Assembly (NCBI GenBank): GCA_963664115.2
Contig: CAXWPJ010000002.1
Coordinates: 288,001-352,000, forward strand
Direction of reading: 5' to 3'
DNA length: 64,000 bases
Source: Terriglobia bacterium
GTDB taxonomy: Bacteria; Acidobacteriota; Terriglobia; 20CM-2-55-15
In this document: in pieces, positions 22,588-51,298 of the stretch
Position numbering within the stretch: position 1 is the first letter of the stretch
Layout of the letters: every line of letters starts with the position of its first letter
Made by a program: the position numbers and the translations under genes
The notes under the pieces: generated by a model
The model's database searches: none
What the model was told of the DNA's origin: nothing
Seen by the model: the letters and a program-made list of their open reading frames with translations, nothing else

Positions 22588-23244
22588 TTCAGATTAATCA
22601 ATACCTGTTCATGCGCAATCGGCAAGGCCCTACCAGACCTTCGCACCCAAACAGCCCCCGGGCTGGCCACCGAACTTGCTAAAGCTGTGTAGCTCTTCAG
22701 TATAGCGTACAAGAACGCTTGTGATCGCCGGAGGTATCGCTTACGCCAAAACTCATATTTAAGAATGTCCTAAGCAATAAGTTTTGTCATTTGAAGAGTT
22801 CCTGAATTTGTAGTCAGAATCGTATGCAAGGAGTCGGTACAGGTATCCAGCATTCCAAGGAATATTCTCCGAGTGAGCTTCGATAACTCTGCAATCGTGT
22901 TTAGTCCGTCGAATCTAACAATCTTTCCCTGCACCTTAGCTCAGAAGAGGGCCGCCACTCCAGATGCTCGGACAGGAGGGACCCAGCGATGTCGGGGTGT
23001 GCAATTTCCGATCGGTATCGCTCAGGCTGACACCTGCAAGATCGATGTTCTTAAAATTCATTTCCTGGGTACTTATTAGACCCGCTGGCTCAGTCATCAA
23101 GCCGACGCCATGGATAGACCCTAAATATTTATTTCAGGAAGCCCGATCACCACCCACATTCCGACCGCCGCACCTCAATTCGCCTCCGATGGCCTATATC
23201 TCCTGTTGTTTCAACGAAATGCCGCAATAGCTACGCTTCCTCAA

Positions 23245-23284
23245 TTCTCAGCGTCCGACAATGTCGTTTCTCAGGACTTGAGAA
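23245..23284 (-). repeat. 40-bp 17-6-17 palindromic site A (reverse orientation)
   Basis: TTCTCAGCGTCCGACAA-TGTCGT-TTCTCAGGACTTGAGAA. Confidence 0.85.
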
Positions 23285-23312
23285 TTTGACTTGAGAATTT
23301 AATAGCACCTAG

Positions 23313-25161
23313 TCCCTGAACAAGCGTGATTGACGAGGAAATGATAGTGCAATAAGAGCGGAAGTACCCGAAATGCCCCGTCTCCGTGCGAAAAAAACCT
23401 TGAACAGATTCTTCGGAAAAGGAGGCATTTCAGATGAACGATTATACGCGCAAGAACATGAGGAACCGCAAGCGGCGAATCGAACGTCGGCTTGGGGACC
23501 GGCATTGGACGGATCAGGTAGAGCCGATGTTTTCGGCGAGCAACATTCAGTACGAGATGGGAGAGCGGACGCGGGGCACATCGGTTGGTGGTATCGGGAC
23601 GATGCAACTGGTGGCGCGGCGGACCGGGCTGATCGAAGCCATCGACAAGGGCGTGCATGTGTTGAAGCGGCACCTGCCGTATCACGAGTCGGATCACGTG
23701 CTGAACATCGCCTACAACGCCTTGAGCGGAGGAACGTGCCTGGAAGACATCGAACTGCGGCGCAACGATGCGGTGTATCTGGATGCGCTGGGAGCGCAAC
23801 GGATTCCGGATCCGACGACGGCGGGAGACTTCTGCCGGAGATTCGAGGCCGACGACGTGGAGTGTCTGATGGAGGCAACCAATCAAGTCCGGCTCGGAGT
23901 CTGGCGACAGCAACCGGCGGCGTTTTTCGAAGAAGCGGTGTTGGACGCGGACGGGACACTGGCCGAAACCACGGGGGAATGCAAGCAAGGGATGGACGTG
24001 GCCTACGACGGGACGTGGGGATATCACCCGCTGATGATCTCGCTGGCCAACACCGCCGAACCGCTGTATCTGGTCAATCGTAGCGGCAACCGGCCGTCGC
24101 ATGAAGGAGCCGCGGTCCGGTTCGACCAAGCCATCGCATTGTGCCGGCATGCGGGGTTTCGCCAGATCCTGCTGCGCGGGGACACGGACTTCAGCCAGAC
24201 CCGGCATCTGGACGGATGGGACGACCAGCAGGTGGGTTTCATATTCGGGATTGACGCGATGGCGAACCTGAAGGCCCGGGCCGATGAACTGGAGCCGCGC
24301 CAGTGGAAGCGCCTGGAACGGCCCGCGAAATACGACGTGGCGACCGAACCGCGCCAACGTCCCGACAACGTGAAGGAAGAGATCGTTCGGCAGCGCGGTT
24401 TCGACAATATCCGCTTGCAGGGTGAGGATGTGGCCGAGTTTCGGTATCGACCCGGAGCCTGCGATCGGGACTACCGTGTCGTCGTGGTGCGGAAGAATCT
24501 GTCGGTGGCCAAAGGAGAGCAGGTGTTGTTTGACGACATCCGGTACTTCTTCTACATTACCAACCGTTCGGATCCGGCCGACCAGATTGTGATGCGTGCC
24601 AATCAACGGTGCAATCAGGAGAATCTCATTGAGCAGTTGAAGAACGGCGTTCAGGCGTTGCGGATGCCGGTCGGAGATCAGACCAGCAACTGGGCCTACA
24701 TGGTGATCGCGTCACTGGCCTGGACACTGAAAGCGTGGTTTGCATTGCTGCTTCCCGAAACCGGACGTTGGGGCCAAAAATATCAGGCTGAGAAGCAAAC
24801 CGTGCTGCGCATGGAGTTCAAAACCTTCTTGAACGCTTTCATGCTTGTGCCGTGCCAACTCGTGCGCACCGGGCGGCGCATTCTGTTCCGGATCCTGGCC
24901 TGGAACCGGTGGTTGCCGGTCTTGTTCCGCGGGGTGGATGTGTTGCGTCAGCCTCTGCGATGTTGACCCGATCATGACTCTGAGCCCGGGCGATCGAGGT
25001 CCCGGTTTCTGTCAACCGTCCAACACCAGCGAGGCTGAACTGAAACAGATTCAACAGAAACTCGATACCTGGAACAGGCCATCCGGGAACGGGATTCTAT
25101 GCCTCGAATTCTATCGGCGCGAACTGGGCCTCGGCGGACTGGTTATGCGCTTGTTTTGGGA
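23313..25161 (+). mobile_element. IS1380-family insertion sequence, copy 2 (transposase 23434-24966)
   Basis: Identical 510-aa transposase, same IRs, CTAG flanks. Confidence 0.9.
23434..24966 (+). CDS. IS1380-family DDE transposase
   Basis: Identical protein to 9001-10533. Confidence 0.9.
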   Translation: MNDYTRKNMRNRKRRIERRLGDRHWTDQVEPMFSASNIQYEMGERTRGTSVGGIGTMQLVARRTGLIEAIDKGVHVLKRHLPYHESDHVLNIAYNALSGGTCLEDIELRRNDAVYLDALGAQRIPDPTTAGDFCRRFEADDVECLMEATNQVRLGVWRQQPAAFFEEAVLDADGTLAETTGECKQGMDVAYDGTWGYHPLMISLANTAEPLYLVNRSGNRPSHEGAAVRFDQAIALCRHAGFRQILLRGDTDFSQTRHLDGWDDQQVGFIFGIDAMANLKARADELEPRQWKRLERPAKYDVATEPRQRPDNVKEEIVRQRGFDNIRLQGEDVAEFRYRPGACDRDYRVVVVRKNLSVAKGEQVLFDDIRYFFYITNRSDPADQIVMRANQRCNQENLIEQLKNGVQALRMPVGDQTSNWAYMVIASLAWTLKAWFALLLPETGRWGQKYQAEKQTVLRMEFKTFLNAFMLVPCQLVRTGRRILFRILAWNRWLPVLFRGVDVLRQPLRC

Positions 25162-25164
25162 CTA

Positions 25165-26315
25165 GTGTACCCCGCTCGAAGTAATGTAACTAAAATAGCT
25201 TTCCAACGTCCAATAGAGAATGAGGAAAGCACCGACCATTGAATTGGATGACAAGCAGCGGATGGAGTTGGAGCGACTGAGTCGAAGCCGGAGTACATCG
25301 GTCCGGTTGGCGGAACGATCCCGAATTGTATTACTGGCCGCTGAAGGTCGGAACAATTATGAGATCGCCGCCCGCTTGGAGATCACGCGCCAGAAAGCGG
25401 GCCGCTGGCGCAATCGTTTTGTGGAACAGGGCTTGGCTGGGATCGAAAAGGATGCGCCGCGAAGCGGACGGATTCCCACGATCAGTCGCCGGAAGCGAGC
25501 CCGGATCGTCAAGAAGACACTGGAAGAGAAGCCCCCGAACGCGACGCACTGGAGTCGGGCCTCGATGGCGAAGGCCGTTGGCGTGAGCGAGTCCACGGTC
25601 GGGAAAATCTGGCGGGTCCATGGACTGAAGCCTCATCTGTCACGAACCTTCAAACTATCCAACGACAAACGATTCGCCGAAAAGCTGGAGGATGTGGTCG
25701 GTCTGTATCTGAGCCCACCGGAAAACGCCATTGTCTTGTCCTGCGATGAGAAGAGCCAGATGCAGGCCCTGGACCGCACGCAACCCGGGTTACCTCTGAA
25801 GAAGGGGCGGTGTGGCACCATGACCCACGATTACAAACGTAACGGGACAACCACGCTTTTCGCCGCGCTCAACATCCTGGACGGTTCGGTCATCGGAACC
25901 TGCATGCCAAAGCATCGCCATCAGGAATGGATCCGGTTTCTGAATCAGATCAAACGCGCCATGCCGAAAGATAAGGAGATCCACATTATTTGCGACAACT
26001 ATGCGACTCACAAACATCAGAAAGTCGTCAACTGGCTCAAGCGTAACAAGCGTTTTCATGTGCACTTCACGCCAACCAGTGCGTCGTGGCTCAACATGGT
26101 CGAGCGCTTTTTCCGGGATCTGTCCGAGCAACGACTCCGGCGTGGCGTTTTCCGCTCGGTCCCCGAGTTGATCCAGGCCGTGGAGGACTACCTCGCTCGT
26201 CACAATGAAGACCCGAAACCCTTCATCTGGACTGCAACGGCTTCCGACATCCTTGCTAAAGTCCAGCGCGGCCGGCGAAATCTTGATAAGTTACAGTCTG
26301 TTTAACGGGGACCAC
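25165..26315 (+). mobile_element. IS630-family insertion sequence, copy 1 (1151 bp, TA duplication within CTAG)
   Basis: Ends GTGTACCCCG / CGGGGACCAC; abuts IS1380 copy 2; same as 35204-36354. Confidence 0.9.
25220..26305 (+). CDS. IS630-family transposase
   Basis: HTH region, SCDEKS, DYKRNGT, CDNYATHK, SWLNMVERFF. Confidence 0.95.
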   Translation: MRKAPTIELDDKQRMELERLSRSRSTSVRLAERSRIVLLAAEGRNNYEIAARLEITRQKAGRWRNRFVEQGLAGIEKDAPRSGRIPTISRRKRARIVKKTLEEKPPNATHWSRASMAKAVGVSESTVGKIWRVHGLKPHLSRTFKLSNDKRFAEKLEDVVGLYLSPPENAIVLSCDEKSQMQALDRTQPGLPLKKGRCGTMTHDYKRNGTTTLFAALNILDGSVIGTCMPKHRHQEWIRFLNQIKRAMPKDKEIHIICDNYATHKHQKVVNWLKRNKRFHVHFTPTSASWLNMVERFFRDLSEQRLRRGVFRSVPELIQAVEDYLARHNEDPKPFIWTATASDILAKVQRGRRNLDKLQSV

Positions 26316-26379
26316 TAGCTCCCTCCCTTAGTATTCTTTACCGAGATTTTCGTTGTTCTTTCGGCGACACACTTTAATC

Positions 26380-26647
26380 ATGGAATCGGGCACTCAGCTA
26401 GGTCAGTACGAGATTCTGAGCCTTCTCGGTCAGGTTGGGGAATGGGTGAGGTGTGGCGTCCAAGGGACGCCAAGCCGGGACGCGAAGTGGCCATTAAGAC
26501 TTTGCCTGAGGAGATTGCCAAGGATGCGGATCGTCTCGCACGAATTGAACGTGAAGCGAAGCTTCTGGCTTCGCTCAATCATTCAAACATCGCTGTGATC
26601 CACGGGTTTGAAGAAGACAACGGGATGCACTTCCTTAGTCTTGGAAC
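26380..26647 (+). pseudogene. Ser/Thr protein kinase 5' fragment (copy 1), frameshifted and truncated
   Basis: [17 protein letters not shown], frameshift, then [37 protein letters not shown]; unrelated sequence follows. Confidence 0.85.
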
Positions 26648-26772: not shown

Positions 26773-29241
26773 ATGTCTGACTCGATTCCAACTTCTCTTT
26801 CATCTATCCTGGGCGCTGCCCGTTCGGCCATGCCGTCGCTGCCGGTGCTTTTCGTTCTCATGCTCCTGCCGGCGCTCTCTTTGGCTCAGGAGGGCACCGC
26901 AGTTCTGTCCGGCCGCATTTTGGACGACTCCGACGGTTCGGCGGTCGGCTTCGCGACCGTGCTGATCAAGAACACCACGGGAGAGCCTCTCTCTGGTGTC
27001 CTTGCTGGAGAGGACGGCCGCTTCCTGATCGAGGGTTTGGCGCCGGGCAACTACACCATCGCGATGTCGTTTCCCGGGTTTTTCCCTGAGGAGGCCAACG
27101 TACTTGTCTCCGAACTCAACCAGTCTTACGACCTGGGTGATATCGGCCTCGTTCGTCAGGTGGTCGAGCAGGAGATTACGGTCACGGCAGAGGCGATCCG
27201 GGTGGCCGGTATAAACACCGAGCTGTTCCGGCTCGACGAAGGGCCGACCCAGTCGACCGGATCGCTGCTCGATGCGATGCGGAATCTTCCTGGTGTGACG
27301 ATCGATCAAGAAGGCAGAGTGGCGCTTCGTGGTAGCGATCAGGTCTCCATCCTTATTGACGGCAGGCAGTCGAGCCTGACGGGATTTGGAAGTCAACGCG
27401 GCCTCGACAGCGTTTCCGCGGCCAATATAGAAGCGATCGAGATCATCCACAATCCTTCTGCGAGCTTTGACGCCGCCGGAATGGCCGGAATCATCAACAT
27501 CATCTACAAACAGGAAACGGAACTGGGCCTCTCGGGAGATCTTGGCCTGTCCGTCGGCGTCGGCCAGTTCTCCAAGCAGCAGCCCGATCTGCCGACTGAT
27601 CTCGGCAGCTTTTCGAACAACGGGAAGATCACGCCCAGCCTAAGCCTGAACTACAACACCGAGAGCGTCCGCAGCTTCGTCCAGACCGAAGTCCTCGTGC
27701 AGGACGATCTGCCAAACAACGAGTTCACGACCCGCTTCTACGACGACGGTCGCGTCATCCAGTCACAGGTGCCGGAAAACCGCGAGCAGACGCACTACAT
27801 CGTCCGGGCAGGCTCGGACATCAGCGTCGGTAGTTCCAACACGCTTTCGGTTTCAGGGATCTACGACTTCGAAACACATACCGACCGTGCGCAGGTTCCC
27901 TTCATCCTGGCGTCCACCGGTGAACGCGAGCGATTTTGGTTCTGGCAGGAAGAGGAAGATACAGGTTTCGCCAACATCAACTTCGATCTCAAGCACGAAT
28001 TCCCGACGCCCGGGCATGAGCTGAACGTCAATCTCCAATACACGCGTGGATGGGAGGACGAGGCGTACTTTCTCAACGAGGAATCAAGGGTTCGCGTGGG
28101 CACGGACATGACCCATCTTGTCGCCGAAGAGAACACTCTGCCACTGAGCATCGATTACATACGCCCGCTGTCGAGCGGTCGGTTGGAGTTGGGCACGAAG
28201 CTCCAAGCGCGCTGGCTGCCAATCACCTACACAGTCGACCGTGGCGTGCAGAGCGTGATTTATGAAGGACTCGGCGACTCTTCCGACTGGGACGAGGACA
28301 TTTACGCCGCGTACGCCAACCTGGTCCAGGTGAAGAACTCGTACTCATTTGAGGCCGGAGTCCGCATCGAGCAGACCAACGTCGCCTACACGATCCCGGA
28401 CGAGAACATCTACTACGAGGGCAGCGACGCGTACAACTACTTCGAGGTCTTTCCAAACGTCAAGTTCACCTACCGGCTGGGCGACGCGAATCAGCTGATC
28501 GCCGCGTACAACCGGCGCATCGATCGACCGGGAGAACCGGAACTGCGCATCTTTCCAAAGTACGACGATCCGGAACTGCTCAAAGTGGGCAACCCGTTTC
28601 TCCGGCCCCAGTTGACCAACGTGTTTGAGGTCGGCTTCGGACGATCGTGGGACGGCGGTTCCGTCAACACTGCCATCTACCACAGGGATCTCGCAGACGC
28701 GTTCCAGCGCGTTTTCGCCATCGACGATACCAACCCGGACTACGACATCGTAAACAGGATCTTCGAGAACGCCGGAAACTCCACCCAGACCGGAATCGAG
28801 GTGATCGTGGAACAGCAGATCGCCGCCCCATGGCGTCTGTCCGGAAGCGTCAACTGGTTCACGAACGACATCGAAGCCCTGGAAACCACCTTGCTGTTCC
28901 CGACACCGCGGCCGTTCACTCTGGCCGCTTCGAGAGACGACACCTGGGATTTCACCATCAACAACCAGTTCCGACTGCCCCGCACGGGGGAACTCCAATT
29001 GAGCTACATCTATTACGCTCGGAGGAACGTCCCCCAAGGCCGCGAGCGTGCACGCTCGTCGCTCGATCTGGCCGCCACCTGGCCCATAGTGAACGAACGC
29101 TCCGAACTGGTGTTCACCTTCAGCGATATCTTCAACGATTTTGCTGTGGAACGTGAGATCGACGGTCAAGGCTTCACGGCGATCTACCAGAACTTGTTGG
29201 AATCGCAAGTTGTCAGCGTTGGCGTAAGAACCCGGTTCTGA
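26773..29241 (+). CDS. TonB-dependent receptor / outer-membrane beta-barrel with carboxypeptidase-regulatory-like N-domain
   Basis: LPGVTID..G..LRG, IEIIHNPSA.FDAAG.AGIINI plug motifs, GNPFLRP, C-terminal F. Confidence 0.9.
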   Translation: MSDSIPTSLSSILGAARSAMPSLPVLFVLMLLPALSLAQEGTAVLSGRILDDSDGSAVGFATVLIKNTTGEPLSGVLAGEDGRFLIEGLAPGNYTIAMSFPGFFPEEANVLVSELNQSYDLGDIGLVRQVVEQEITVTAEAIRVAGINTELFRLDEGPTQSTGSLLDAMRNLPGVTIDQEGRVALRGSDQVSILIDGRQSSLTGFGSQRGLDSVSAANIEAIEIIHNPSASFDAAGMAGIINIIYKQETELGLSGDLGLSVGVGQFSKQQPDLPTDLGSFSNNGKITPSLSLNYNTESVRSFVQTEVLVQDDLPNNEFTTRFYDDGRVIQSQVPENREQTHYIVRAGSDISVGSSNTLSVSGIYDFETHTDRAQVPFILASTGERERFWFWQEEEDTGFANINFDLKHEFPTPGHELNVNLQYTRGWEDEAYFLNEESRVRVGTDMTHLVAEENTLPLSIDYIRPLSSGRLELGTKLQARWLPITYTVDRGVQSVIYEGLGDSSDWDEDIYAAYANLVQVKNSYSFEAGVRIEQTNVAYTIPDENIYYEGSDAYNYFEVFPNVKFTYRLGDANQLIAAYNRRIDRPGEPELRIFPKYDDPELLKVGNPFLRPQLTNVFEVGFGRSWDGGSVNTAIYHRDLADAFQRVFAIDDTNPDYDIVNRIFENAGNSTQTGIEVIVEQQIAAPWRLSGSVNWFTNDIEALETTLLFPTPRPFTLAASRDDTWDFTINNQFRLPRTGELQLSYIYYARRNVPQGRERARSSLDLAATWPIVNERSELVFTFSDIFNDFAVEREIDGQGFTAIYQNLLESQVVSVGVRTRF

Positions 29242-29260
29242 GGATCCAATATGCTTGTCC

Positions 29261-29300
29261 TTCTCAAGTCCTGACAAATCATCTTCTCGGACGTTGAACT
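29261..29300 (+). repeat. Palindromic site B
   Basis: TTCTCAAGTCCTGACAA-ATCATC-TTCTCGGACGTTGAACT. Confidence 0.85.
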
Positions 29301-29529
29301 TCGGGGAGAAGTGCCTAGGAACTGAAATAACGCCGGATTACTAACGATAAGTCGCCAAGGGTTTACCTATCCTGCGGAAGTGAATAGCTCTACCATTCGG
29401 CGTTGCCGAGGACGAATCGTCGCGGCCGCAGGCCGTCGCGCGACCTCTTGCTTTCATGTTTCTTTATCGAGATTTTCAAAGCCAGATTGAAAGAGTCGGT
29501 TCAGTGCCGTCCTATGAGATAGTGGCGTC

Positions 29530-29928
29530 ATGTACTGGCCGCCAACTCGGACGTTTCTGAAATACATCGTCATTCAGATTCCGGGCTGGCTCGGGCTGGT
29601 AGGCGTGCTGCTTTTGCTGTGGCGTCGAGTGGAAATGCCCGCCTGGGCCGCCGGCACGCTGCTCGGTTGCTGGGTTGTGAAAGACCTTGCTCTCTATCCG
29701 TTCCTCCGACGGTCATACGAAGAAGATCCACGGACGGGAGTTGAGCGTATGGTGGGCCTCCGTGGAGTCGTCACCACCGACCTCACGCCAAAGGGTTACG
29801 TCCGCGTGCGCGGCGAGCTGTGGCGTGCGACGGCCCCAACAGGGCCCGTGCCCAGAGGAAGCACGGTGGAAGTCGTCAGTGCTGCTGGTCGTCTTACTTT
29901 GGCGGTTGAACGGGTGCCGGTGCCCTAA
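29530..29928 (+). CDS. NfeD-family protein whose last residues (ERVPVP*) come from the kinase-tail repeat
   Basis: Two TM segments then G.ERMVG..G.V...L.P.GYVRVRGELWRA; ends GAACGGGTGCCGGTGCCCTAA. Confidence 0.8.
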   Translation: MYWPPTRTFLKYIVIQIPGWLGLVGVLLLLWRRVEMPAWAAGTLLGCWVVKDLALYPFLRRSYEEDPRTGVERMVGLRGVVTTDLTPKGYVRVRGELWRATAPTGPVPRGSTVEVVSAAGRLTLAVERVPVP

Positions 29929-29965
29929 ACGACGGTGAAAATGATTCTCAAGTCCCGAGAAATCA

Positions 29966-31214
29966 GGTGATCTCAACAGATCGATGCAACACTGTACCTA
30001 AAAGGAGGAGGTGGAGTGTATGCGTAAGAAACGACGGAAGAAACAGAGTAAAGACCGGGTGCGGCGAGGCTACACACTCGCCGATATAGACGAGGTGTGG
30101 ATTCGCTGGCAGCGGGGAGAGAGTCTGAAAGCGATCGGACGTGTGTTCGGAAAGGAGGGCTCTTCGGTTTATGGTCAGATCGCACCGTATGGTGGAATCT
30201 GTCCCAGGACACGATGCCGCTCTAAGCGGGCGCTGACCCTCGCCGAGCGTGAAGAGATTTCCCGAGGCATTGCCGCCAAGGGATCGATCCGTTCAATTGC
30301 CGAGTCGCTGTCGCGTACACCCTCCACAGTCAGTCGGGAGATCGGTCGCAATGGGGGCTATGATAACTATCGAGCGTTGGAGGCGGATGAACGCGCATGG
30401 GAACGGGCTCACCGCCCGAAGAGATGTCGACTGATCCGCTATCCCAGCTTACGCGGGATCGTCGAAGAGAAGCTCCGGGAGGATTGGGCACCGCGACAAA
30501 TTGCGGGTTGGCTGAAACGCGAATATCCAGACGACGAGTCACTTTACGTGTCACACGAAACGATCTATCGCAGCCTTTTCATCCAGGCCCGCGGGGCTCT
30601 GAAGAAAGAACTGACACAGCATCTACGGACCAAACGCACGATTCGCCGGTCCCAGCATGCCAGTCGCAAAGGCCGGGGTGGCGGGCAGATCCCGGATCTG
30701 ATATCGATCCGTGAGCGCCCGGCTTCGGTTGAAGATCGCGCGGTCCCCGGACACTGGGAAGGGGATCTCATAGCGGGTTCGAACAACACCTACATTGCGA
30801 CATTGGTCGAACGTTTCTCCCGGTACGTGATGCTGGTGAAGGTTCCGAATAAGGAAACCGAAACCGTCATCAACGCGCTGATCGAACACGCAGACAAACT
30901 CCCGACCGAACTCTATAAAACACTGACCTGGGATCGCGGATTGGAAATGGCCAATCACAAACGGTTCACTCTGGCCACCGACATTGCCGTTTACTTTTGC
31001 GATCCGAGGAGTCCCTGGCAACGGGGTTCGAACGAAAACACGAACGGTTTGCTCCGACAGTATTTCCCTAAAGGTACGGACTTGTCGGTTCACTCACAGG
31101 AGCATTTGGATATGATCGCAAGGAAGCTCAACGGGCGACCTCGTGAGACGCTGGACTTCGCTAATCCGGCAGAGACATTAAACGCAGGTGTTGCATCGAC
31201 CGGTTGATCTGAAT
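29966..31214 (+). mobile_element. IS30-family element (1249 bp) inserted in the spacer of palindromic site C (29945-29965 + 31215-31235), CA duplication
   Basis: IR cores TCGATGCAACAC / GTGTTGCATCGA; the flanks rebuild TTCTCAAGTCCCGAGAA-ATCATC-TTGTCGGACGTTGAGAA. Confidence 0.9.
30011..31207 (+). CDS. IS30-family transposase
   Basis: VSHETIY, GHWEGDL, LTWDRG.EM, PWQRGSNENTNGLLRQYFPKG. Confidence 0.95.
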   Translation: MECMRKKRRKKQSKDRVRRGYTLADIDEVWIRWQRGESLKAIGRVFGKEGSSVYGQIAPYGGICPRTRCRSKRALTLAEREEISRGIAAKGSIRSIAESLSRTPSTVSREIGRNGGYDNYRALEADERAWERAHRPKRCRLIRYPSLRGIVEEKLREDWAPRQIAGWLKREYPDDESLYVSHETIYRSLFIQARGALKKELTQHLRTKRTIRRSQHASRKGRGGGQIPDLISIRERPASVEDRAVPGHWEGDLIAGSNNTYIATLVERFSRYVMLVKVPNKETETVINALIEHADKLPTELYKTLTWDRGLEMANHKRFTLATDIAVYFCDPRSPWQRGSNENTNGLLRQYFPKGTDLSVHSQEHLDMIARKLNGRPRETLDFANPAETLNAGVASTG

Positions 31215-31278
31215 CATCTTGTCGGACGTTGAGAATTGGATGCACGGCTTACTACCATGTTCGGCGTAGAAGGACCAT

Positions 31279-31947: not shown

Positions 31948-31950
31948 GAA
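31911..31950 (+). repeat. Palindromic site D
   Basis: TTCTCAAGTCCTGACAA-ATCATC-TTCTCGGACCTTGAGAA, preceded by the shared linker CCGTGAAAATGA. Confidence 0.85.
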
Positions 31951-36354: not shown

Positions 36355-38838
36355 TAGTAGAAGGCGACACGCTTGCGGATCAGTTGAAGCGTGGTGCCAT
36401 TCCTGTCGAAGAATCACTGAAGCTAGCCTTACAAATCGCGGAGGCTTTGGAGGCCGCGCATGAAAAAGGGGTCATCCACCGTGACCTGAAACCAGCGAAC
36501 GTCAAGGTCACACCAGACGGGAAAGTGAAGGTGTTGGATTTCGGCCTCGCAAAAGCCTTTGACGGGGGCGCCGCTGACGCAAACGTATCGAACTCTCCCA
36601 CGCTCAGCATGGCCGCGACACAGCAGGGTGTCATCCTCGGGACAGCGGCGTACATGTCGCCGGAGCAAGCCCGAGGTGAGAACGCTGACCAGAGGGTCGA
36701 TGTATGGGCTTTCGGAGTGGTTCTGTTTGAGATGCTGACCGGTCGCGGGACGTTTGATGGACACACAGTTTCTGATGTTCTGGCTGCCGTTCTTGCCAGA
36801 GACCCGGATTGGAATAGCCTTCCCCACAACCTACACGCGCAACTGCGGCGACTCCTTGAACGATGCCTATCGAAAGAGTTGAAAGACCGATACCACGGCA
36901 TTGCTGATGCGCGGGTGGATATTGAGAGCGTATTGGCTGATCCCAACGGTGTGATTGCGCAGCCAGTCGCTCAAGTTGTTCAGGCCACCCCGCCGAGACT
37001 CCACGTGGTGGCCGCAATCGCTCTGGCCGCCATGGTTGCCGGTGTGAGTGTCTGGACTCTGAAACCAACCGACCCTCGCCCGGTCAGCCGCCTTGAATAC
37101 AACCTGCCAGAGGGACTCGCTGTACTGGTTCCTAACGGGCGGCCTGCAGTCGCCATTTCACCCAACGGGGAGCAGTTCGTATACTACGCTAACAGTATTG
37201 GGGATAGTGAAGAAGGGCTCTACGTTCGCTCGATGGATGAACTTGAAGCCCGCATTATTCCGGGCGCGGAAAATCCGGAGAACCTCGTCTTCTCACCCGA
37301 CGGGCAGGAAATTGCCTACTACCAAGGAGCGGCGCCCGGGCGATTGATGAAGATCGCAGTTAGTGGTGGTGCACCTGTGACTCTTTCGGAACCAATTGGG
37401 AATCCTTTTGGCGTGAGCTGGGAGTCAGACGGCACGATTCTTTTCGGGCAATCAGATGGGATCTGGAGCGTGTCGGAAAGCGGTGGTGAACCAGACCATT
37501 TGATAGTAACAGAACCGGGTGAACAGGTTCACGGGCCGCAGCTTCTGCCCGGGGGAGAATGGATTCTGTTCACGCTTACTGGTGAGACTGGAGACAGCCG
37601 TTGGGACGAAGCCAACATCGTTGTCGAGTCGCTTTCCTCCGGCGAGCGTCGAGTATTGCGACAGGGCGGCAGCGACGCTCGTTATGTTCCGACTGGACAT
37701 CTCGTCTATGCTTTCGGAGATGGGCTCTTCGCCTTGCCCTTCGATGTGGACAGTCTGGAACTCAGTGGGGGACCCACATCGATACTTCAAGGTGTTCGAC
37801 GGGCCTTTGCCCCAGGACTCCAGACCGGCGTAGCGTATTATGGCTTTTCCAACAACGGGACGCTCGTTTATCTTCCCGCACCTCCTCCTTACGGTGTGTC
37901 CACGCTGGTCACAGTGGATCGTAGTGGGAACCCCCAGTCCTTCACCGGCGAAGCGCGCAACTATACCCGACCCCGGGTCTCACCCGACGGCAGCCGCGTT
38001 GCCGTAGAGGCCACCGAGACAGGCGGAGCTACACCTACCCACATTTGGATCGTGGATATTGAAACCGGGAATGGCACGCAACTGACGTTTGAAGGATCGC
38101 AGAATGAGTTTCCTGTGTGGGCGCCCGATAGTCAGACGGTCGTCTTCAGGTCTGACAGATCCGGGAGGATGGCGCTTTACACGAAGTCGGCGGCTGGCAG
38201 CGGAGAGGCTGAATTAGTGTTTGAAGGAAGCGGCACGCTGGTTGCCACCGACGTGCTACCCGATGGGACCCTGCTCTTGCAGGAGTCCAACGGTGACAAC
38301 GATGACATCTGGACACTGCCTTTAGACGGCGACGGCTCTCCCTCGGAGTTCCTGGCGACACCGGCCAATGAGCGGAGTGCACGCTTCTCTCCCGACGGCA
38401 GATGGATCGCATACATTTCCGACGAGTCCGGCCAGTTTCATGTCTACGTGCGACCCTACCCTAGGTCGAACGGAGGGCAGAGGCGCGTTTCAGAAAGTGG
38501 GTTTGGGAACTATGCGCCGGTCTGGTCTCCCGATGGGGGCCAGCTATACTATGTCGCGGGACCTCCAGAGATTCTGATGAACGTCCCGATACAGACAGAC
38601 CCCAACCTGCTGCCTGGCCGCCCACAAGAATTGTTCCCGATCGATGGAGCATTTCAGGCCGACGCGCGGACAACATTTGTCCCACTCTGGGGTCTCACTC
38701 CCGATGGGACACAATTCGTATTCGTCCAAGCGGCAGCGCGGGACAACCCCGACGTACCCACGCAATTCAACGTCGTCCTGAACTGGTTTGAAGAACTGAA
38801 AGAACGGGTGCCGGTGCCATAGATGACCGTGAAAATGA

Positions 38839-38878
38839 TTCTCAAGTCCTGAGAAATCATCTTGTCGGACATTGAGAA
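38839..38878 (+). repeat. Palindromic site G (best copy)
   Basis: TTCTCAAGTCCTGAGAA-ATCATC-TTGTCGGACATTGAGAA, 16 bp after the kinase stop. Confidence 0.9.
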
Positions 38879-39035
38879 TTCTTGAACATAGGTGCCGAGT
38901 CACGAAAAGTCCGGAGACGCCGTAAATGAAGCCGAAAAGCATGAACTTCCACTCAACTGTAAATTGCCTGCTCGTAGTGGCTGTTGCCATCGGGATGGAG
39001 GCCGCGTTCTGCGGTACTAACGCGGGGGGGGCGAT

Positions 39036-40559
39036 ATGAATCGACGAGAGTTCATTGGCAGTGCGACGGGCTTGGGTGCGGCATTGGCATTCCCCGCCGG
39101 GCGTTCAAGTAGACTCATGGCGATTCAACTGCCAACCGACATCGTCGGCTTCACTGCGTCGCAACTGTCGACGGCTATCCAACAAAGACAAGTTAGTTGC
39201 GTCGAAGTGATGGAAGCCTATCTACAACAGATTCACCGTTACAATCCAGTCTATAACGCCATCGTCAGCATGGCCGATGACGATCTGCTAATCAGCCAGG
39301 CGGAACTCGCCGATCAAGCCTTGGCCCGCGGCGAATATCGGGGTTGGATGCACGGAATGCCTCATGCCGTCAAGGACCTGTACGATGCGGAAGGCTTTCC
39401 AACAAGCAGGGGCTCTACCATCTACGCGGGAACCGTGGCGGAACAAGATAGTTTCATGATCGGCAGAATCCGTAGCCAGGGCGCGATCTTCATAGGAAAG
39501 ACGAATGTGCCTGAATTTGGTATGGGTTCGCAATCATACAACCCTGTATTCGGTGCCACGGGCAGCGCGTACAATCCGGCACTGACGGCAGGTGGTAGCA
39601 GTGGTGGCGCCGCAAGTGGTCTTGGGACCCACATGCTTCCGGTGGCTGACGGTGGTGACTTGATGGGGTCGCTTCGCAATCCAGGCGCCTTCAATAACGT
39701 GATCGGATTTAGGCCTAGTCAGGGGCGAGTGCCGGGCGGTGGCGGGGGCGACCTGTTTTACCAGCAGATGTCCACAGGTGGTCCGATGGGGCGTAACAGT
39801 GAAGATACGATTCGCCTTCTGCACAGTATCGCCGGCTACGACTCCGGCCAACCGCTGACCCTCAGGGGTGAAATACCGCCCTATGAGGAGTTCAGGGCGC
39901 GTGATCTACGGGACCTCAAAATCGGGTGGATGGAAAATTATGAAGGCTATCTCAACATCGAACCTGGCATTCTTGAACTCTGTGAAGCCAGCCTCGGTGG
40001 TCTCACAAGAGAGGGCGCGATTGTCGAGTCGTGCAGGCCACAGTACGACATGGACCGGCTTTGGCAGACTTGGCTGACGTTACGCCACTGGACCCGTCAC
40101 GGAACTAGGGCGCTCTACGACGATCCCGACACTCGAAAGCTGTTAAAGCCGGAAGCCATCTGGGAGATCGAAGGCTCGTTCGACGCTTCGGGGGCGGATA
40201 TATACGAGGCAGGAATCGCCCGTGCAGACTGGTTCCGTGCTTTGGATTCTCTGTTTGATGAGTACGACTTCTTGGTCTTGCCAACTGCTCAGGTATTTCC
40301 TTTCTCAAAGGAGATTCATTGGCCCGAGTCCATCAACGGCGTTCGGATGGACACCTATCATCGCTGGATGGAGGTAGTAATTGGGGGGACATTGGCTGGC
40401 CTCCCAGTGGTCAACGTACCCGTGGGGTTCGATCAGCGGGGCCGACCCATGGGCATGCAAGTCATGGGACGGTTCGGGGAGGATCAGAGGATTCTGGAAT
40501 TTGCCATGGCCTACGAACGAGTTACGGATCACCTAGACCTGCGTCCAGAATTGGTTTAA
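39036..40559 (+). CDS. Amidase signature family enzyme, Tat-exported
   Basis: NRREF Tat motif; AVKD, GKTNVPEF, GGSSGG, DGGDLMGSLRNP. Confidence 0.9.
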   Translation: MNRREFIGSATGLGAALAFPAGRSSRLMAIQLPTDIVGFTASQLSTAIQQRQVSCVEVMEAYLQQIHRYNPVYNAIVSMADDDLLISQAELADQALARGEYRGWMHGMPHAVKDLYDAEGFPTSRGSTIYAGTVAEQDSFMIGRIRSQGAIFIGKTNVPEFGMGSQSYNPVFGATGSAYNPALTAGGSSGGAASGLGTHMLPVADGGDLMGSLRNPGAFNNVIGFRPSQGRVPGGGGGDLFYQQMSTGGPMGRNSEDTIRLLHSIAGYDSGQPLTLRGEIPPYEEFRARDLRDLKIGWMENYEGYLNIEPGILELCEASLGGLTREGAIVESCRPQYDMDRLWQTWLTLRHWTRHGTRALYDDPDTRKLLKPEAIWEIEGSFDASGADIYEAGIARADWFRALDSLFDEYDFLVLPTAQVFPFSKEIHWPESINGVRMDTYHRWMEVVIGGTLAGLPVVNVPVGFDQRGRPMGMQVMGRFGEDQRILEFAMAYERVTDHLDLRPELV

Positions 40560-40743
40560 AGAACTGAAGGAACGGGTGCCGGTGCCGTGATCGGTTTGCA
40601 TTTCCTACTCACCACTCGACCAGCGTCTCTTCCGTAATCGCCGCCCCGCAGCCATCGAAACGAACCCTGCGCTTCATTGACAGTGCCATTCGCAAACTCT
40701 ACAATTCGCTGAAAACTGCTCCGCATTACAAGAGGTGACTCCA

Positions 40744-41724
40744 ATGAAACGAGCTATGGTATATGTGGCGTCGGGCGCGGTGTGCGCTATTCTTTCCTGC
40801 GGTTCCGCCTTTTCCCAGGAAGCTATTCCGACTGGAGGCCCGATTCCCGACATACGCGGATTCACCAGCCGGCTCAACGATCCCGAGGCGGTTGCGGCGA
40901 TCGAGGTAGTTGTCCGCCATGTTGCCGGGCAGGTGTACGTGATTGCGGGCGCAGGTGGGAATGTGACGGTCATGGCGGGCGATGATGGCATTTTCATCGT
41001 CGACACGAATTACCCCGCTTTCTACGACCAGATCATAGCCGCAATTCGACGCATCTCGGACGGGCCCATCCGCTTCGTGGTCAACACGCACTCTCACCTA
41101 GACCACAGCGGCAACAACGAAAGCTTTGCCAGGGAGGGCGCGGTGATCATCACTCAGCCCAACCTGCGCCGGGCGTTGATAGGAGATCGCAGCGGTTCGG
41201 ATCTTCCGGGCGGATTGCCTGTGATCACATCGACGGAACCGATGTCGTTTCACTTCAACGGGGAGGAAGTTCTCTTCGTGCCGTTGAAGCCCTCGCACAC
41301 GGACGGAGACGCGGCGGTGTACTTCAGCGGTTCCGACGTGTGGTCCTTTGGTGACGTGTACCGGACGGACTATCCGTCCTTGAATCCCTCCGTTGGTGGC
41401 ACGATTGAGAATTTCGTTGATATTTACAGCATGGCGCTTGATATGACGACGCCGGCCACGATTTTTGTCCCCGGCCACGGCCAACTCTCGCCCAGAGAGG
41501 AGCTGAGCGGAGTGCTTGACGCCGTGATCACGATTCAGGGTCGTTTCCGCGACATGGTGGCACGGGGCATGACGCTCGACGAGATCATGGAGGCACGTCC
41601 GTCAAGGGAGTTCGATGCTCGCTTCTCCAGCGAATCCAAATCGCCCACCACGGGCAATACGGTAGAGCGCGTTTACACTCGCTTTTACGAAGATGTTTCA
41701 CGGGAGCTGGCGGAACAACAGTGA
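40744..41724 (+). CDS. MBL-fold metallo-hydrolase (cyclase-like), exported
   Basis: NTHSHLDHSGNN, SHTDGD, FGD, VPGHG. Confidence 0.9.
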   Translation: MKRAMVYVASGAVCAILSCGSAFSQEAIPTGGPIPDIRGFTSRLNDPEAVAAIEVVVRHVAGQVYVIAGAGGNVTVMAGDDGIFIVDTNYPAFYDQIIAAIRRISDGPIRFVVNTHSHLDHSGNNESFAREGAVIITQPNLRRALIGDRSGSDLPGGLPVITSTEPMSFHFNGEEVLFVPLKPSHTDGDAAVYFSGSDVWSFGDVYRTDYPSLNPSVGGTIENFVDIYSMALDMTTPATIFVPGHGQLSPREELSGVLDAVITIQGRFRDMVARGMTLDEIMEARPSREFDARFSSESKSPTTGNTVERVYTRFYEDVSRELAEQQ

Positions 41725-42006
41725 AGGACTTCCCCGGATGGGTCCTGTCATGTTAGCTGGAATTCGTTCTGTTTCGAGGAGAAATCGATTCTAGCCAGGC
41801 CAGGAATCATCAACTTAGCTGGCATTGCGATCAGTGAAATCTTCATTTGATCGGTTTACTTGGCAACCCCTTTCTGTAGGACCGTCTTCTCTACACATGG
41901 TGGCCGCTAGAAAATCAACATCGTCCTGAACTGCTTGAAGAACTGAAGGAACGGGTGCCGGTTCCTTAGACGACCGTGAAAATGATTGTCAACGCCCGAT
42001 AAATCA

Positions 42007-42082
42007 ATTCGGATCAACCGGTCGATGCAACACTTTACTGAAAAGGAGAGGTCAAGTGTTGCATCGATCTATTGAGACCACC
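42007..42082. mobile_element. 76-bp IS30-type MITE inserted in the spacer of palindromic site H (41986-42006 + 42083-42103), CA duplication
   Basis: ATTCGGATCAACCGGTCGATGCAACAC...GTGTTGCATCGATCTATTGAGACCACC closely match both ends of the IS30 at 29966-31214. Confidence 0.85.
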
Positions 42083-42490
42083 CATCTTCGCGGACGTTGA
42101 GAATGCGTCGATTCCAATCATTGCTTCCAACCCACTCGTTCTAAAGCATAGGACTGGTTGCCCTAAGCCGACTCCTGGGGCGTTGAATTTGGATCGGTAA
42201 ACGAAACGGCGTTACTCGCGAGTAATCGTCGTTGATACCGCACGTCCTCAACCGCCGCGGACTGGGTGTCCGCAGCCCTTTCGACACTCTTGAACCTATA
42301 GTCGCTGTGCAAATCATCGAAAGATGGGGGTATGCGGTCATCTAGGTCTACAATGAGAGAAATCGGGATGGTAGCACTCCTCCATTAGCACCCACCGCAT
42401 CTGCTCTGCGAAGTCATCCTGTGCTGGTCCGGCCGTCCAAACCGAGGCACTGGATCGACGCTCCAAAACCTGTCGGTCACCCGGAGAACC

Positions 42491-44179
42491 ATGGAACTCG
42501 AAGAGAAATCTAATGAAGTGCAGAATCTCATCGCTAGGGGGAAGGAAAAGGGCTACTTGCTCTACGAGGACGTGAGCGATCTCCTGCCGCCCCAGATGAC
42601 GGCTTCGGCCGAGGCTCTCGAGGACCTGTTTTCTGCTTTCGACGCGGCCGGAATCGAGGTGATTGAGACCGAGGATCAGTCCTTTGCGACCGAGAAGCTG
42701 ACCCCATCGAAGAGACCCACTGCGGCGACGCGCACGAATGAAGTGACGTCGGACCTCACTCCGGGCGCTCGGGACAGGACGAATGACCCGATCCGCATGT
42801 ACCTGCGTGAGATGGGCACGGTTCCCCTCTTGACGCGTGCTGGCGAAGTACAGATTGCCAAGAGGATCGAACGGGGGCAGTTGCGGGTGCAGCAGTCGCT
42901 CTCTCGCTCCCCGCTGGTAATCCAGAAGATTCTGGCTGCAGGCGAGGCGTTGAAGAAGGATCCCAGCGTCATCAAAAACCTCGCGCAATTCACCCAAGAT
43001 GATCTGACTGAGGAGAGGATCGAAGAGATCCACGGCAACGTGGTTGAGACCATTGCTCAGATCAAGAGACTCAACCGCCGAGTGGGCACGCTCCAGACGA
43101 AACTGGTATCGATTCCGAGGTCTCGAAAGGCGAGGGAGCATCATAAGGCACGCTGGAAATTGGGTCGGAAACGAGTCGAACTCTCCAGGCTTGTCCGATC
43201 TTTGGATTATTCGGCAACGGAAAAGATGGCCTTGATTCTGCTCGTGCGCGAAGCTATCAGCATCATTCGACCGTTGGAGAAACAATTGGCCCATCTGGAG
43301 CGCAGTAAGGGCCACACGAGGAAGGAATACAGGAAGAACGTCCAGAAAGAAATCCGTGCGGTCAAGCGGAAGATCAAGGCTTTCGAACAAGAGCACGATA
43401 CGACCGCCCTGGAACTACGTCGCACGCTGCAGTCGATCGTGCGCGGCCAGAACCAGGCCGAAAACGCAAAGCGGGAACTCGTAGAAGCAAACTTGCGTTT
43501 GGTCGTTTCGATCGCTAAGAAGTACTCGAATCGAGGCTTGCAGTTGCTCGACATGATCCAGGAAGGCAACGTCGGCCTGATGAGGGCTACCGATAAGTTT
43601 GAGTACCGAAGAGGGTATAAGTTTTCGACCTACGCGACCTGGTGGATCCGGCAGGGGATTACGCGGGCGATCTCCGATCAGGCAAGAACAATCCGTGTTC
43701 CGGTCCACATGATGGAGATGATTAACAAAATGATACGGACTTCCCGGATGCTGGTTCACGAATTGGGGCATGAGCCGACCAACGACGAAATTGCAGAGAA
43801 GATGGGGATCCCCGTAGGGAAGGTCCGGAAAATCATGAAGGTCGCTCAGCAACCGATCTCACTGGAAACGCCGATCGGAGAAGAGGACGATTCCCATTTG
43901 GGGGATTTTATCGAGGACCCAGGCGCGGTCTCCCCTTCCGATGCGGTGGTCAAGCTGAACCTCAATGAGATGACCGAGCAGGTCCTGAACACGCTGACGC
44001 CTCGTGAGGAGCGCATCATCAAGATGAGATTTGGCTTGGAGGACGGCAGCGAACACACCTTAGAAGAAGTTGGACAGATCTTTGGCGTGACCCGAGAGAG
44101 GATCCGTCAGATTGAAGCGAAGGCTCTCAAAAGGCTGCGCCACCCGACGAAGAGTTCGCGCCTCAGGGGCCTTTTGTGA
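42491..44179 (+). CDS. rpoD: RNA polymerase sigma-70 factor, RpoD type
   Basis: Region 1.1 GKEKGYL, 1.2 [11 protein letters not shown], 2 [15 protein letters not shown] and YATWWIRQ, 4 [22 protein letters not shown]. Confidence 0.9.
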
Positions 44180-44243
44180 CGGCACGGGGCTCGACTGATT
44201 TATCTTAAAATTGAAGGAACGGGTGCCGGTGCCCTGATTTCCA

Positions 44244-44456
44244 AGTTCAAGTCCTGTTGAGATCACACCCGTTGTCGGACGTTGACCTTCGCGGAAAAGT
44301 GTCTAGGACCTGGAGTAACGCCGGATTAGTAACGATAAGTCGCCTAGCGTTTAGGAATCGGGGGCATTAACGACCCAGAAGTCGGCTTAGGGGAAGTTGG
44401 CGGAGACAGAGATGACGGCTCAAGTCCTGAGAAATCATCTTCTCGGACATTGAGAG
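44244..44456 (+). repeat. Site cluster: degenerate site I (44244-44287), second-class site (44370-44397), site J (44417-44456)
   Basis: TCAAGTCCTG...TTGTCGGACGTTGA; ACGACCCAGAA-GTCGGC-TTAGGGGAAGT; CTCAAGTCCTGAGAA-ATCATC-TTCTCGGACATTGAGA. Confidence 0.8.
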
Positions 44457-44535
44457 TCGAAGCTACAACTTTCCGATAGGCCGACTGGAGTCTATGTATG
44501 CCGTCGAACCGGCATCAACACACGAAAGGATAGGG

Positions 44536-44970
44536 ATGGTTCCCTCGGAGAAAGAAATAACTGCACAAGAGTTCGAAAAGCGACTGGCGGCGCTCTGTCG
44601 CGGCACGAATTCCGGTCTGCCTAGAAAACATCGGGATCGTCACATCATATTCAGAAGTATCGTTCAGACACTCGACGCAAAGGTCATGTATTCCGAGCAA
44701 TCGCTCAACGAGGGCTTGAAGGCATGGGTGTCTGAAGTCGGCATGGGAATTGCGGTCGATCACGTAACACTTAGGCGCTATTTGGTCGATGCAGGGTATC
44801 TATGTCGTGATCGCCAAGGGACTAACTATCGGGTACAAATTGGTGGGGCTGGAGAGGTGAGATTCGAACCCTCGGTAGGCAGCGTAGATTCAGCCGCTGT
44901 CATTCATTCGGCGCGTGAGCAGGCAGCCATTCGGAAGCGCGATCGATCCGTACAATCTCCGCAGAACTGA
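44536..44970 (+). CDS. DUF2087 domain protein
   Basis: YSE..LNE.L..W and DHVTLRRYLVD.GYL.RD motifs; stop lies inside a kinase-tail repeat. Confidence 0.75.
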   Translation: MVPSEKEITAQEFEKRLAALCRGTNSGLPRKHRDRHIIFRSIVQTLDAKVMYSEQSLNEGLKAWVSEVGMGIAVDHVTLRRYLVDAGYLCRDRQGTNYRVQIGGAGEVRFEPSVGSVDSAAVIHSAREQAAIRKRDRSVQSPQN

Positions 44971-45051
44971 AGGAACGGGTCCCGACCCCCTGATTCTTGA
45001 GTTCAGGTCCTTCCAGCATTTGACACCTGGGTGTGTTGACCTGTCGCATGG

Positions 45052-51279: not shown

Positions 51280-51298
51280 CAGCCCCAGCCTCCGCGCA

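What the first reader, a model, noticed from the sequence alone, without database searches (positions are those of the whole stretch)
23195..45010. Candidate new cassette system: dif-like sites plus hollowed-out kinase-TolB units carrying unrelated cargo genes
Seen: over about 22 kb a unit recurs as [palindromic site]-[kinase leader and head]...[kinase tail ELKERVPVP*]-[linker]-[palindromic site]. Only one copy (34937-38822) holds the whole kinase. In the other intervals, with head and/or tail scraps surviving to varying degrees, sit unrelated genes: TonB receptor, NfeD, GNAT, a DUF6152 pair, amidase, MBL hydrolase, RpoD and DUF2087. No recombinase gene is in the window. Known parallels: integron arrays without integrase (CALINs) and Acinetobacter pdif modules moved by host XerC/D. 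Inference: a gene-capture array assembled by a trans-acting tyrosine recombinase, with the multi-copy kinase gene as scaffold or landing pad.
Basis: partly seen in the sequence, partly recalled or inferred. Interest (0 to 1): 0.9.

Follow-up and report, generated by a model that had tools for sequence, protein, structure and literature searches.

The report
Genome-wide kinase-scaffold gene cassette system
About a tenth of this uncultured acidobacterium's chromosome is built of gene units bounded by one 42-letter repeat; the same units sit next to different neighbours within and between species, so they likely move by a still unidentified site-specific recombinase, and they appear to be born when a foreign gene replaces the middle of a kinase gene.

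Summary
The pattern is real and genome-wide: 171 whole and 66 split or degenerate copies of a 42-bp symmetric site; 27 arrays cover about 10% of a Terriglobia genome. Corrections: the "whole" kinase is interrupted by IS630, and the site is not dif-like in sequence (TTAT in 0 of 170; the genome has its own canonical dif).

Units move site to site. Copies of the window's NfeD, GNAT, DUF6152 and DUF2087 units lie elsewhere in this genome or in congeners, with breakpoints in the site. None of 31 shared-cassette pairs keeps its upstream neighbour, and 23 share no flanking homology, which favours site-specific recombination over RecA.

Cassette birth is separate. Amidase and NfeD join the kinase tail at 6–10 bp microhomologies, and site-free genera also carry hollowed kinase units. 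No dedicated recombinase was found: XerC/XerD are shared but fit the site poorly, and IntI has its own attC sites. Three IS types and a group II intron target the site.

It works like pdif modules or integron arrays but fails their membership tests.

The parts
23244..23285 (-). Site, second class (spacer ACGACA), reversed, in front of a kinase promoter-leader
23303..25167 (+). IS1380 copy inserted in the kinase leader
25161..26322 (+). IS630 copy inserted at the end of the IS1380
26315..26647 (+). Rest of the leader and frameshifted kinase head scrap
26773..29241 (+). Cargo: TonB-dependent receptor; 92% amino-acid paralogue at C5:328440
29260..29301 (+). Site, main class (spacer ATCATC); entry of the NfeD unit
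29530..29928 (+). Cargo: NfeD-like gene fused to the kinase tail (ends ERVPVP) at a GAACGG microhomology; unit duplicated at C12:161923-161223, 99.3%
29944..31236 (+). Site split at its centre by an IS30 (29966-31214, CA duplicated)
31279..31947 (+). Cargo: GNAT gene, reading into the exit site; unit also at C12 (91%) and in G001 (94.6%, site to site)
31910..31951 (+). Site, main class
32058..32099 (-). Site, second class, facing the previous site across a recurring filler of about 105 bp
32100..32483 (+). Kinase promoter-leader and frameshifted head scrap (about 100 codons)
32685..34103 (-). Cargo: DUF6152 gene and 294-aa partner; whole unit in G002 at 94-96%
34390..34677 (+). Long kinase tail scrap
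34796..34836 (+). Degenerate site (5-bp spacer)
34937..38822 (+). Full-length Ser/Thr kinase - membrane segment - PD40/TolB propeller gene, interrupted by IS630
35197..36358 (-). IS630 copy inside the kinase gene
38838..38879 (+). Site, main class
39036..40559 (+). Cargo: amidase, last codons lost at a microhomology joint with the tail
40542..40589 (+). Tail scrap without a site; homology to the G001 MBL unit starts inside it
40735..41724 (+). Cargo: metallo-beta-lactamase-fold hydrolase
41912..41969 (+). Tail scrap
41985..42104 (+). Site split by a 76-bp miniature IS30 derivative (42007-42082)
42491..44179 (+). Cargo: second RpoD-type sigma factor, 71% identical to the copy at C10:157945
44205..44289 (+). 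Tail scrap followed by a damaged site (44243-44289) with an IS30-end-like remnant in its centre
44290..44415 (+). Recurring non-coding unit of about 125 bp between two sites
44416..44457 (+). Site, main class
44494..45011 (+). Cargo: DUF2087 gene, tail scrap and left half-site (44999-45011); unit in G002 at 92%
51239..51280 (+).

Best explanation
This is one of 27 chromosomal arrays of site-bounded gene cassettes that change neighbours at a 42-bp symmetric site, likely by site-specific recombination through an unidentified trans-acting, probably tyrosine-type, recombinase, while new cassettes are likely born when a foreign gene replaces the body of a kinase-propeller gene by homology-anchored illegitimate recombination. 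Step 1 (shown in relatives): the kinase family forms tandem arrays with a conserved tail-head junction. Step 2 (shown): in two genera the site is present, and in genus g1 it sits in that junction, between tail and promoter. Step 3 (junctions shown, mechanism inferred): incoming DNA anchors on tail or head homology and joins at a few bases of microhomology, leaving scraps around the cargo. Step 4 (outcome shown, enzyme inferred): units are exchanged at the site, independent of flanking homology, within and between species. Step 5 (shown): IS elements and an intron use the site as a target.
For: Near-identical units at different loci, with identity starting and ending in sites once inserted IS copies are discounted, six in G000. 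35 of 166 cross-species alignments end at a site in both genomes, against 2.4% chance per end. Of 31 pairs (22 families) sharing the downstream cassette, 0 share the upstream unit; 8 are tail-tail (25% expected by chance) and 23 share nothing beyond the site. No sites at the syntenic locus in G002 and G003. Contigs from 3 other studies carry the NfeD unit from 29261 with about 1,070 other letters upstream, and a metagenome contig joins two separate G000 regions at the site. Site layout: AA-N6-TT in 155 of 170 copies, degenerate positions mirror-symmetric, no hairpin covariation. Two spacer classes with fixed orientation rules: 110 direct main-main intervals, 37 inverted mixed, 2 direct mixed, of 168. 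Other spacers in G004, G047 and G048. Microhomology joints for amidase (5 site-free relatives) and NfeD (1 relative). Hollowed kinase units without sites in other genera.
Against: No dedicated recombinase was found: among the 30 of 49 PF00589 loci fetched from G002-G004, the only close orthologues shared by G000, G002 and G003 are XerC and XerD, and the site matches the host dif arms at only about 5 of 11 positions. Arm alleles are not inherited with their flank as a single central crossover predicts: columns 15-16 differ as often as at random in 16 left-sharing pairs, column 27 in 17 right-sharing pairs, column 34 in 6 of 17. This needs gene conversion, branch migration or dispersed crossovers. 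Some exchanges fall inside a tail with no site. No excised circle was seen, and only contigs could be laid. Only two capture junctions could be mapped.
Confidence: 0.6

Rival explanations
1. No dedicated recombinase: ordinary homologous recombination and gene conversion among about 200 copies of tail, site and head shuffle the units, and the site is a hitch-hiking protein-binding sequence such as an operator next to the kinase promoter.
For: Dispersed inheritance of arm alleles. Hollowed units and tandem arrays in site-free genera. Breakpoints inside tails. The site abuts a -35/-10-like leader in the kinase units (promoter read by eye). No recombinase found. Precedent for integrase-free arrays: Vibrio T6SS immunity arrays (PMC5361080, passages).
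Against: Extra tail homology gives no excess of exchanges (8 of 31 against 25% expected), and 23 of 31 exchanges used no more than the 42-bp site with its mismatches. 66 of 143 main-class sites have no tail and most have no head.
Confidence: 0.2
2. The units are chromosomal pdif-like modules moved by the host's XerC/XerD (or XerC alone) acting on a strongly diverged site. This is the special case of the best explanation in which the enzyme is already known.
For: 11-6-11 core with AA/TT next to the spacer; the reverse complement of the right arm matches the host XerC arm at 7 of 11 on average. XerC and XerD are the only shared tyrosine recombinases found. Inverted site pairs with different spacers exist, as in xrs cassettes (PMC11705084, passages).
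Against: TTAT in 0 of 170, ATAA in 35 of 170. The inner positions that are best conserved in dif (PMC2731167, passages) include the most variable ones here. A canonical dif exists separately. Genera with no site were not shown to lack Xer genes, and G004 has XerC/D with few sites.
Confidence: 0.2
3. The IS elements and the intron that target the site centre drive the shuffling: their insertion and excision, or breaks they make, join sites to one another, and the site needs no recombinase of its own.
For: IS30 7 of 7 copies, one IS110-type element 7 of 7 and another 9 of 9 have at least one end in a site; 3 group II intron copies likewise. Allele uncoupling is strongest near the centre.
Against: Most moved units have intact sites with no IS remnant at either end. 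The IS110b cluster had no G003 member among ORFs near sites. Specialised targeting is what an abundant older site attracts (compare IS1202 at xrs, 10.1101/2022.12.17.520857, passages).
Confidence: 0.1
4. The arrays are CALINs or REP/RAYT products acted on as single-strand hairpins by the genome's IntI or Y1 transposase.
For: The site can fold (mean -5.6 against -2.3 kcal/mol shuffled). An IntI and two Y1 genes are in the genome, one Y1 gene about 300 bp from a site.
Against: attC boxes are not met (R'' 0 of 170, R' 9 of 170), there is no compensatory covariation in 10 tested pairs, and both strands fold alike. IntI has its own canonical attC sites and no copy of this site in 18 kb. No IntI-like hit among G003's fetched loci.
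Confidence: 0.04

Closest known systems
pdif/xrs modules and chromosomal dif-module islands of Acinetobacter (PMC11705084 passages; PMC12907356 abstract)
   Same: One or a few genes between short two-armed sites with a 6-bp centre; no recombinase gene nearby; clustered multi-module arrays; exchange between strains; specialised IS targeting.
   Different: Arms are about 18 bp and do not follow the dif consensus; most adjacent sites are direct repeats with one spacer; about 200 sites per chromosome; kinase scaffold with its own promoter.
Integron cassette arrays and CALINs (10.1101/030866 passages)
   Same: Co-oriented, directly repeated sites; unrelated cargo; order not conserved; group II intron and IS110-type elements in the site.
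   Different: 42-bp site without attC boxes or hairpin covariation; cargo keeps upstream DNA and occurs in both orientations (82 with, 40 against); many arrays per genome in both orientations; IntI has separate attC sites.
Orphan arrays built by homology-facilitated illegitimate recombination (Vibrio T6SS immunity arrays, Rhs/CDI; PMC5361080 passages)
   Same: A conserved gene end serves as anchor, the other joint is illegitimate, and scraps of the displaced gene pile up in arrays.
   Different: Cargo is unrelated to the scaffold, and a separate palindromic site bounds the units and is the main exchange point.
REP/REPIN-RAYT repeats (features recalled)
   Same: Hundreds of short imperfect palindromes, some as inverted doublets; IS110-type targets.
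   Different: Sites are confined to arrays of variable genes and mark the breakpoints of moved units; symmetry fits double-stranded binding.
difH/difSL single-recombinase sites (PMC2731167 passages)
   Same: Inner TGARAA-N6-TTYTC geometry of the commonest allele resembles the difH consensus.
   Different: No XerS hit above cut-off among 25 tyrosine recombinases scanned (no XerH model was seen in the output); multi-copy, no adjacent recombinase gene.

Membership tests
pdif/xrs modules (XerC/D) | 11-6-11 two-armed core | tested here: met
   AA-N6-TT in 155 of 170 sites
pdif/xrs modules (XerC/D) | ATAA-centre-TTAT motif and conserved XerD arm like the host dif | tested here: not met
   TTAT 0 of 170, ATAA 35 of 170, mean 5.2 of 11 matches to either host arm; host dif at C2:108118-108145
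pdif/xrs modules (XerC/D) | Modules mostly flanked by inverted sites with different centres | tested here: not met
   110 of 168 intervals are direct with the same class; 37 are inverted mixed
pdif/xrs modules (XerC/D) | Host encodes XerC and XerD | tested here: met
   TIGR02224 and TIGR02225 above cut-off
pdif/xrs modules (XerC/D) | Binding and cleavage by XerC/D | not testable with these tools
   needs biochemistry
Integron array / CALIN | attC R'' (RYYYAAC) and R' (GTTRRRY) boxes; consensus recalled, seen in the genome's own attC sites | tested here: not met
   0 of 170 and 9 of 170; canonical sites beside IntI
Integron array / CALIN | Single-strand hairpin maintained by covariation, one strand favoured | tested here: not met
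   10 column pairs, p 0.12-1.0; top and bottom strands fold equally
Integron array / CALIN | Directly repeated sites with mobile, re-ordered cassettes | tested here: met
Integron array / CALIN | IntegronFinder attC model hit | not testable with these tools
   program and model not available
REP/REPIN-RAYT | Dispersed through intergenic DNA, not tied to variable genes | tested here: not met
   210 of 237 sites in 27 arrays; 89% have a neighbour within 5 kb against 38% at random
REP/REPIN-RAYT | RAYT gene flanked by the repeat | tested here: inconclusive
   one site about 300 bp from a Y1 gene, none on its other side within the 14 kb read
Homology-facilitated capture arrays | Homologous anchor at one end, microhomology at the other | tested here: met
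   amidase and NfeD junctions, 2 of 2 that could be mapped
Composite transposon / MITE | Both sites travel whole, with a target duplication outside them | tested here: not met
   identity breaks inside the sites

The most novel reading that the evidence does not exclude
A third, independent bacterial gene-cassette system beside integrons and pdif modules: its own 42-bp site and its own as yet unrecognised recombinase, grafted onto a tandem receptor-kinase family that supplies promoter and capture anchors, so that cassette birth and cassette movement are both visible and about 10% of the chromosome is a gene pool shared across species.
Probability: 0.4. Interest if true: 0.92.

Novelty: new variant of a known kind. 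Interest (0 to 1): 0.8.

Why it matters
How gene cassettes are first made is an open question for integrons and pdif modules (my background knowledge). Here intermediate stages are readable: intact kinase, hollowed unit, microhomology joint, bare cassette. The system moves transporters, hydrolases and even a second RpoD between species of a little-studied phylum. A compact 42-bp site with spacer classes is directly testable in a reporter, and either outcome is informative: a new recombinase-site pair, or XerC/D or RecA doing something unexpected.

Tried and rejected
Recombinase candidates. The 321-aa tyrosine recombinase between two second-class sites on C5 was not found in G002 or G003, so it is treated as cargo. 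The integrase plus IS91-type element has no close match among G003's fetched loci. IntI is rejected. No large serine recombinase domain in G000-G003. Resolvases are present in all five congeners; their orthology was not tested. Clustering 1,422 ORFs near sites gave no recognisable recombinase among the clusters with 3 or more genomes or 5 or more members, judged by eye from N-termini.

Reads. Eight runs were laid as contigs; listed joints had sides under 40 letters and say nothing about circles. No RNA holder was listed. Depth was not used as copy number.

Other searches. No Rfam family in the window. No site in viral contigs. A strand bias by replichore was not evident by eye and was not tested formally. 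Junctions of TonB, MBL and RpoD could not be mapped, because the other copies are too diverged. Only 24 of 38 ORFs after head scraps are co-oriented, 3 fused in frame, so the portable-promoter idea has weak support.

Rows dropped. Sites with both flanks at least 95-97% identical (long duplications such as C2 start/C2:161-167k, C6/C11, C5/C9, possibly assembly overlaps) were collapsed; sites followed by kinase heads were left out; multi-copy IS regions were masked.

Literature. Searches found no description of this site or system; the library lacks most subscription papers, and no supplements were read.
Full report
OBSERVATION. The window is G000:C2:288001-352000; relatives that share the site are labelled Terriglobia. 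Between 23244 and 45011 I find six intact copies of a 42-bp imperfect palindrome, two more split by IS30-type DNA, two damaged copies and one half-site, with a further copy at 51239. The one full-length kinase-propeller gene is split by IS630, so the window holds no intact copy. The genome has four intact full-length ORFs in the cluster, plus a fifth full-length match at C5:155791.

SCALE. A matrix from seven window sites gave 208 genome hits and none in shuffled DNA. After merging there are 171 whole and 66 half, split or degenerate sites. 210 of these 237 lie in 27 arrays that span 482,595 bp, about 10% of the genome; 89% have a neighbour within 5 kb against 38% at random. The genome has 53 kinase heads and 136 tail motifs, 82 of them followed by a scored site. 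Scraps are mostly short: 41 of 53 heads stop by residue 90, and 69 of 88 tails before a site cover 30 residues or fewer. The tail figure may be an underestimate of length, because 51 were seen by motif only and the propeller is divergent. Among 35 genomes of the order, a loose pattern hits 5 of 5 in the genus (142, 92, 56, 12, 2 copies), 4 of 5 in one other genus (1-3 copies) and 0 of the other 25, several of them incomplete. It was not found in 16 genomes of other families or in viral contigs, and was found in 14 metagenome contigs.

THE SITE. The consensus is an 18-bp left arm, a 6-bp asymmetric centre and an 18-bp right arm; each arm is itself two inverted hexamers. The variable positions (9-10, 15-16, 27-28, 33-34) mirror each other about the centre (rho 0.57, p 0.03, best of nine registers, so modest evidence), and no pair covaries as a hairpin would. 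I read this as a double-stranded protein-binding site. Two centre classes exist. The main class (143 of 171) follows tails in 77 cases; the second (23 of 171) is reversed and precedes a kinase leader and head in 15 cases. Adjacent sites are mostly direct repeats of the main class (110 of 168 intervals); mixed pairs are nearly always inverted (37 against 2). G004, G047 and G048 use other centres. The genome has a separate canonical dif. The site lacks TTAT in all 170 copies tested and matches the host dif arms at about 5 of 11 positions, whereas ATAA-centre-TTAT determines Xer binding and cutting (PMC11705084, passages) and the inner arm is the best conserved part of dif (PMC2731167, passages).

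UNITS MOVE AT THE SITE. Six units occur twice in G000 with identity beginning and ending in sites once inserted IS copies are discounted, among them the window's NfeD unit (99.3%) and GNAT unit (91%). The GNAT unit is in G001 at 94.6% from site to site, the DUF6152 unit in G002 at 94-96%, and the DUF2087 unit in G002 at 92%; syntenic core DNA is about 80-88% identical between G000 and G002. In the array regions fetched from G001-G003, 35 of 166 alignments to G000 end at a site in both genomes. Many of the other ends are IS insertions, and a few lie inside tails. Of 31 pairs sharing a downstream cassette, 23 of them between species, none shares the upstream unit; 8 are tail-tail, as chance predicts, and 23 share only the site (long two-sided duplications and head-followed sites were removed first). 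G002 and G003 have no site in 34-40 kb around the syntenic locus, where the cobN-type operon adjoins what is C2:84 kb in G000; G000 has an oppositely oriented array there, which suggests an inversion between arrays (the second junction was not checked). Contigs from three other studies carry the NfeD unit from 29261 with about 1,070 unrelated letters upstream, and metagenome contig L204 joins C2:258 kb to C9:1144 kb sequence at a site.

RESULT AGAINST A SIMPLE CROSSOVER. Columns 1-13 follow the left flank and 39-43 the right flank, but 15-16 and 27 follow neither, and column 34 differs in 6 of 17 right-sharing pairs. A single exchange in the 6-bp centre does not give this. Conversion among about 200 copies, branch migration after a first strand exchange, or dispersed homologous crossovers would. 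With 16 and 17 non-independent pairs I cannot separate these.

HOW CASSETTES ARE BORN. In five relatives the amidase has no site next to it and ends with several more codons; in the window it switches to the kinase tail at a shared stretch of about 8-10 bases. The NfeD gene of G003 likewise continues where the window copy switches to the tail at GAACGG. The MBL unit is shared with G001 from inside a tail that has no site. In genera with few or no sites the kinase family forms head-to-tail arrays with overlapping stop and start codons, and isolated head and tail scraps with other DNA between them occur there too. So hollowing and capture are older than the site and do not need it. The joints fit homology-facilitated illegitimate recombination, proposed for Vibrio T6SS immunity arrays (PMC5361080, passages). 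Only two joints were mapped.

THE ENZYME. G000 has 27 PF00589 hits, including XerD, XerC, an IntI, IS91-linked integrases and phage-type integrases. Of these only XerC and XerD have close orthologues in both G002 and G003 among the 30 of 49 loci fetched. IntI has three canonical attC sites of its own (consensus recalled). The recombinase gene flanked by two sites on C5 was not found in G002 or G003. I infer a tyrosine-type enzyme from the site layout, the centre classes and the independence from flanking homology; it is not identified. The best explanation (0.6) includes the XerC/D case (0.2).

PARASITES. All 7 copies of an IS30, all 7 of one IS110-type element (family recognised by eye) and all 9 of another (NF033542) have at least one end in a site, as do 3 copies of an ORF-less group II intron. 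IS630 (29 copies) and IS1380 (79) insert at CTAG elsewhere in the 14 copies shown of each. This parallels IS1202 targeting of xrs sites (10.1101/2022.12.17.520857, passages).

COMPARISON AND VERDICT. It works like pdif modules, including their chromosomal islands (PMC12907356, abstract), and like integron arrays without an adjacent integrase (10.1101/030866, passages), but fails the defining site tests of both. Four literature searches and three look-ups in the scan's notes found no description of it. I class it as a new variant of recombinase-moved cassette arrays, with a 0.4 chance that it is an independent system with its own enzyme. Interest 0.8.

Noticed in passing
G000:C2:108118-108145 and about C2:111514-111541: Canonical dif with a second, degenerate dif-like copy 3.4 kb away, possibly an element integrated at dif.
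   Followed up: no
L003:4480-9760 (G000:C9:710-716 kb): A conventional integron: IntI above the TIGR02249 cut-off with three canonical attC sites, cassette genes on the same strand as intI.
   Followed up: partly
G000:C5:52058-53271: A 321-aa tyrosine recombinase gene between two inverted second-class sites, each leading outward into a kinase head; not found in G002 or G003.
   Followed up: partly
L141:560-1250 and 3680-4390: ORF-less group II intron of about 690 nt inserted between site columns 28 and 29; three copies.
   Followed up: partly
window 42007-42082: 76-bp miniature IS30 derivative, two ends with a short spacer, in the site centre.
   Followed up: no
window 42491-44179: Second RpoD, about 72% identical in DNA to the best copy in each of 34 relatives searched that had a match, so its donor is not among them.
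   Followed up: partly
L144, L146, L152, L157: Tandem arrays of full-length kinase-propeller genes, several with overlapping stop and start codons, in genus g4; similar arrays in g10 (L148, L149, L151).
   Followed up: partly
G000:C2:84125 to C2:310820: Probable 226-kb inversion relative to G002 and G003 with oppositely oriented arrays at both ends; it includes dif.
   Followed up: partly
window 31902-31916, 38830-38844 and similar: A subset of sites has a left extension forming a 7-1-7 palindrome that resembles a Fur box (motif recalled, untested).
   Followed up: no
L004:6040-6819 and 8650-9159: Two Y1 (RAYT-like) genes, one about 300 bp from a site.
   Followed up: partly
L111:686-831: Site plus kinase leader on a 2.8-kb contig labelled Dehalococcoidia; misbinning or transfer, untested.
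   Followed up: no
G000:C2:764779-766452 and C5:211377-213101: Kinase head scraps fused in frame to unrelated cargo.
   Followed up: no
whole genome; window 8800-10663, 23303-25167, 56632-57918: Heavy IS load: 79 IS1380 and 29 IS630 matches, nearly identical, plus IS256.
   Followed up: no
G000:C6 upstream of 39773 (also C11): An attC-like sequence (judged by eye) lies just upstream of a site, suggesting an integron cassette captured into this system.
   Followed up: no
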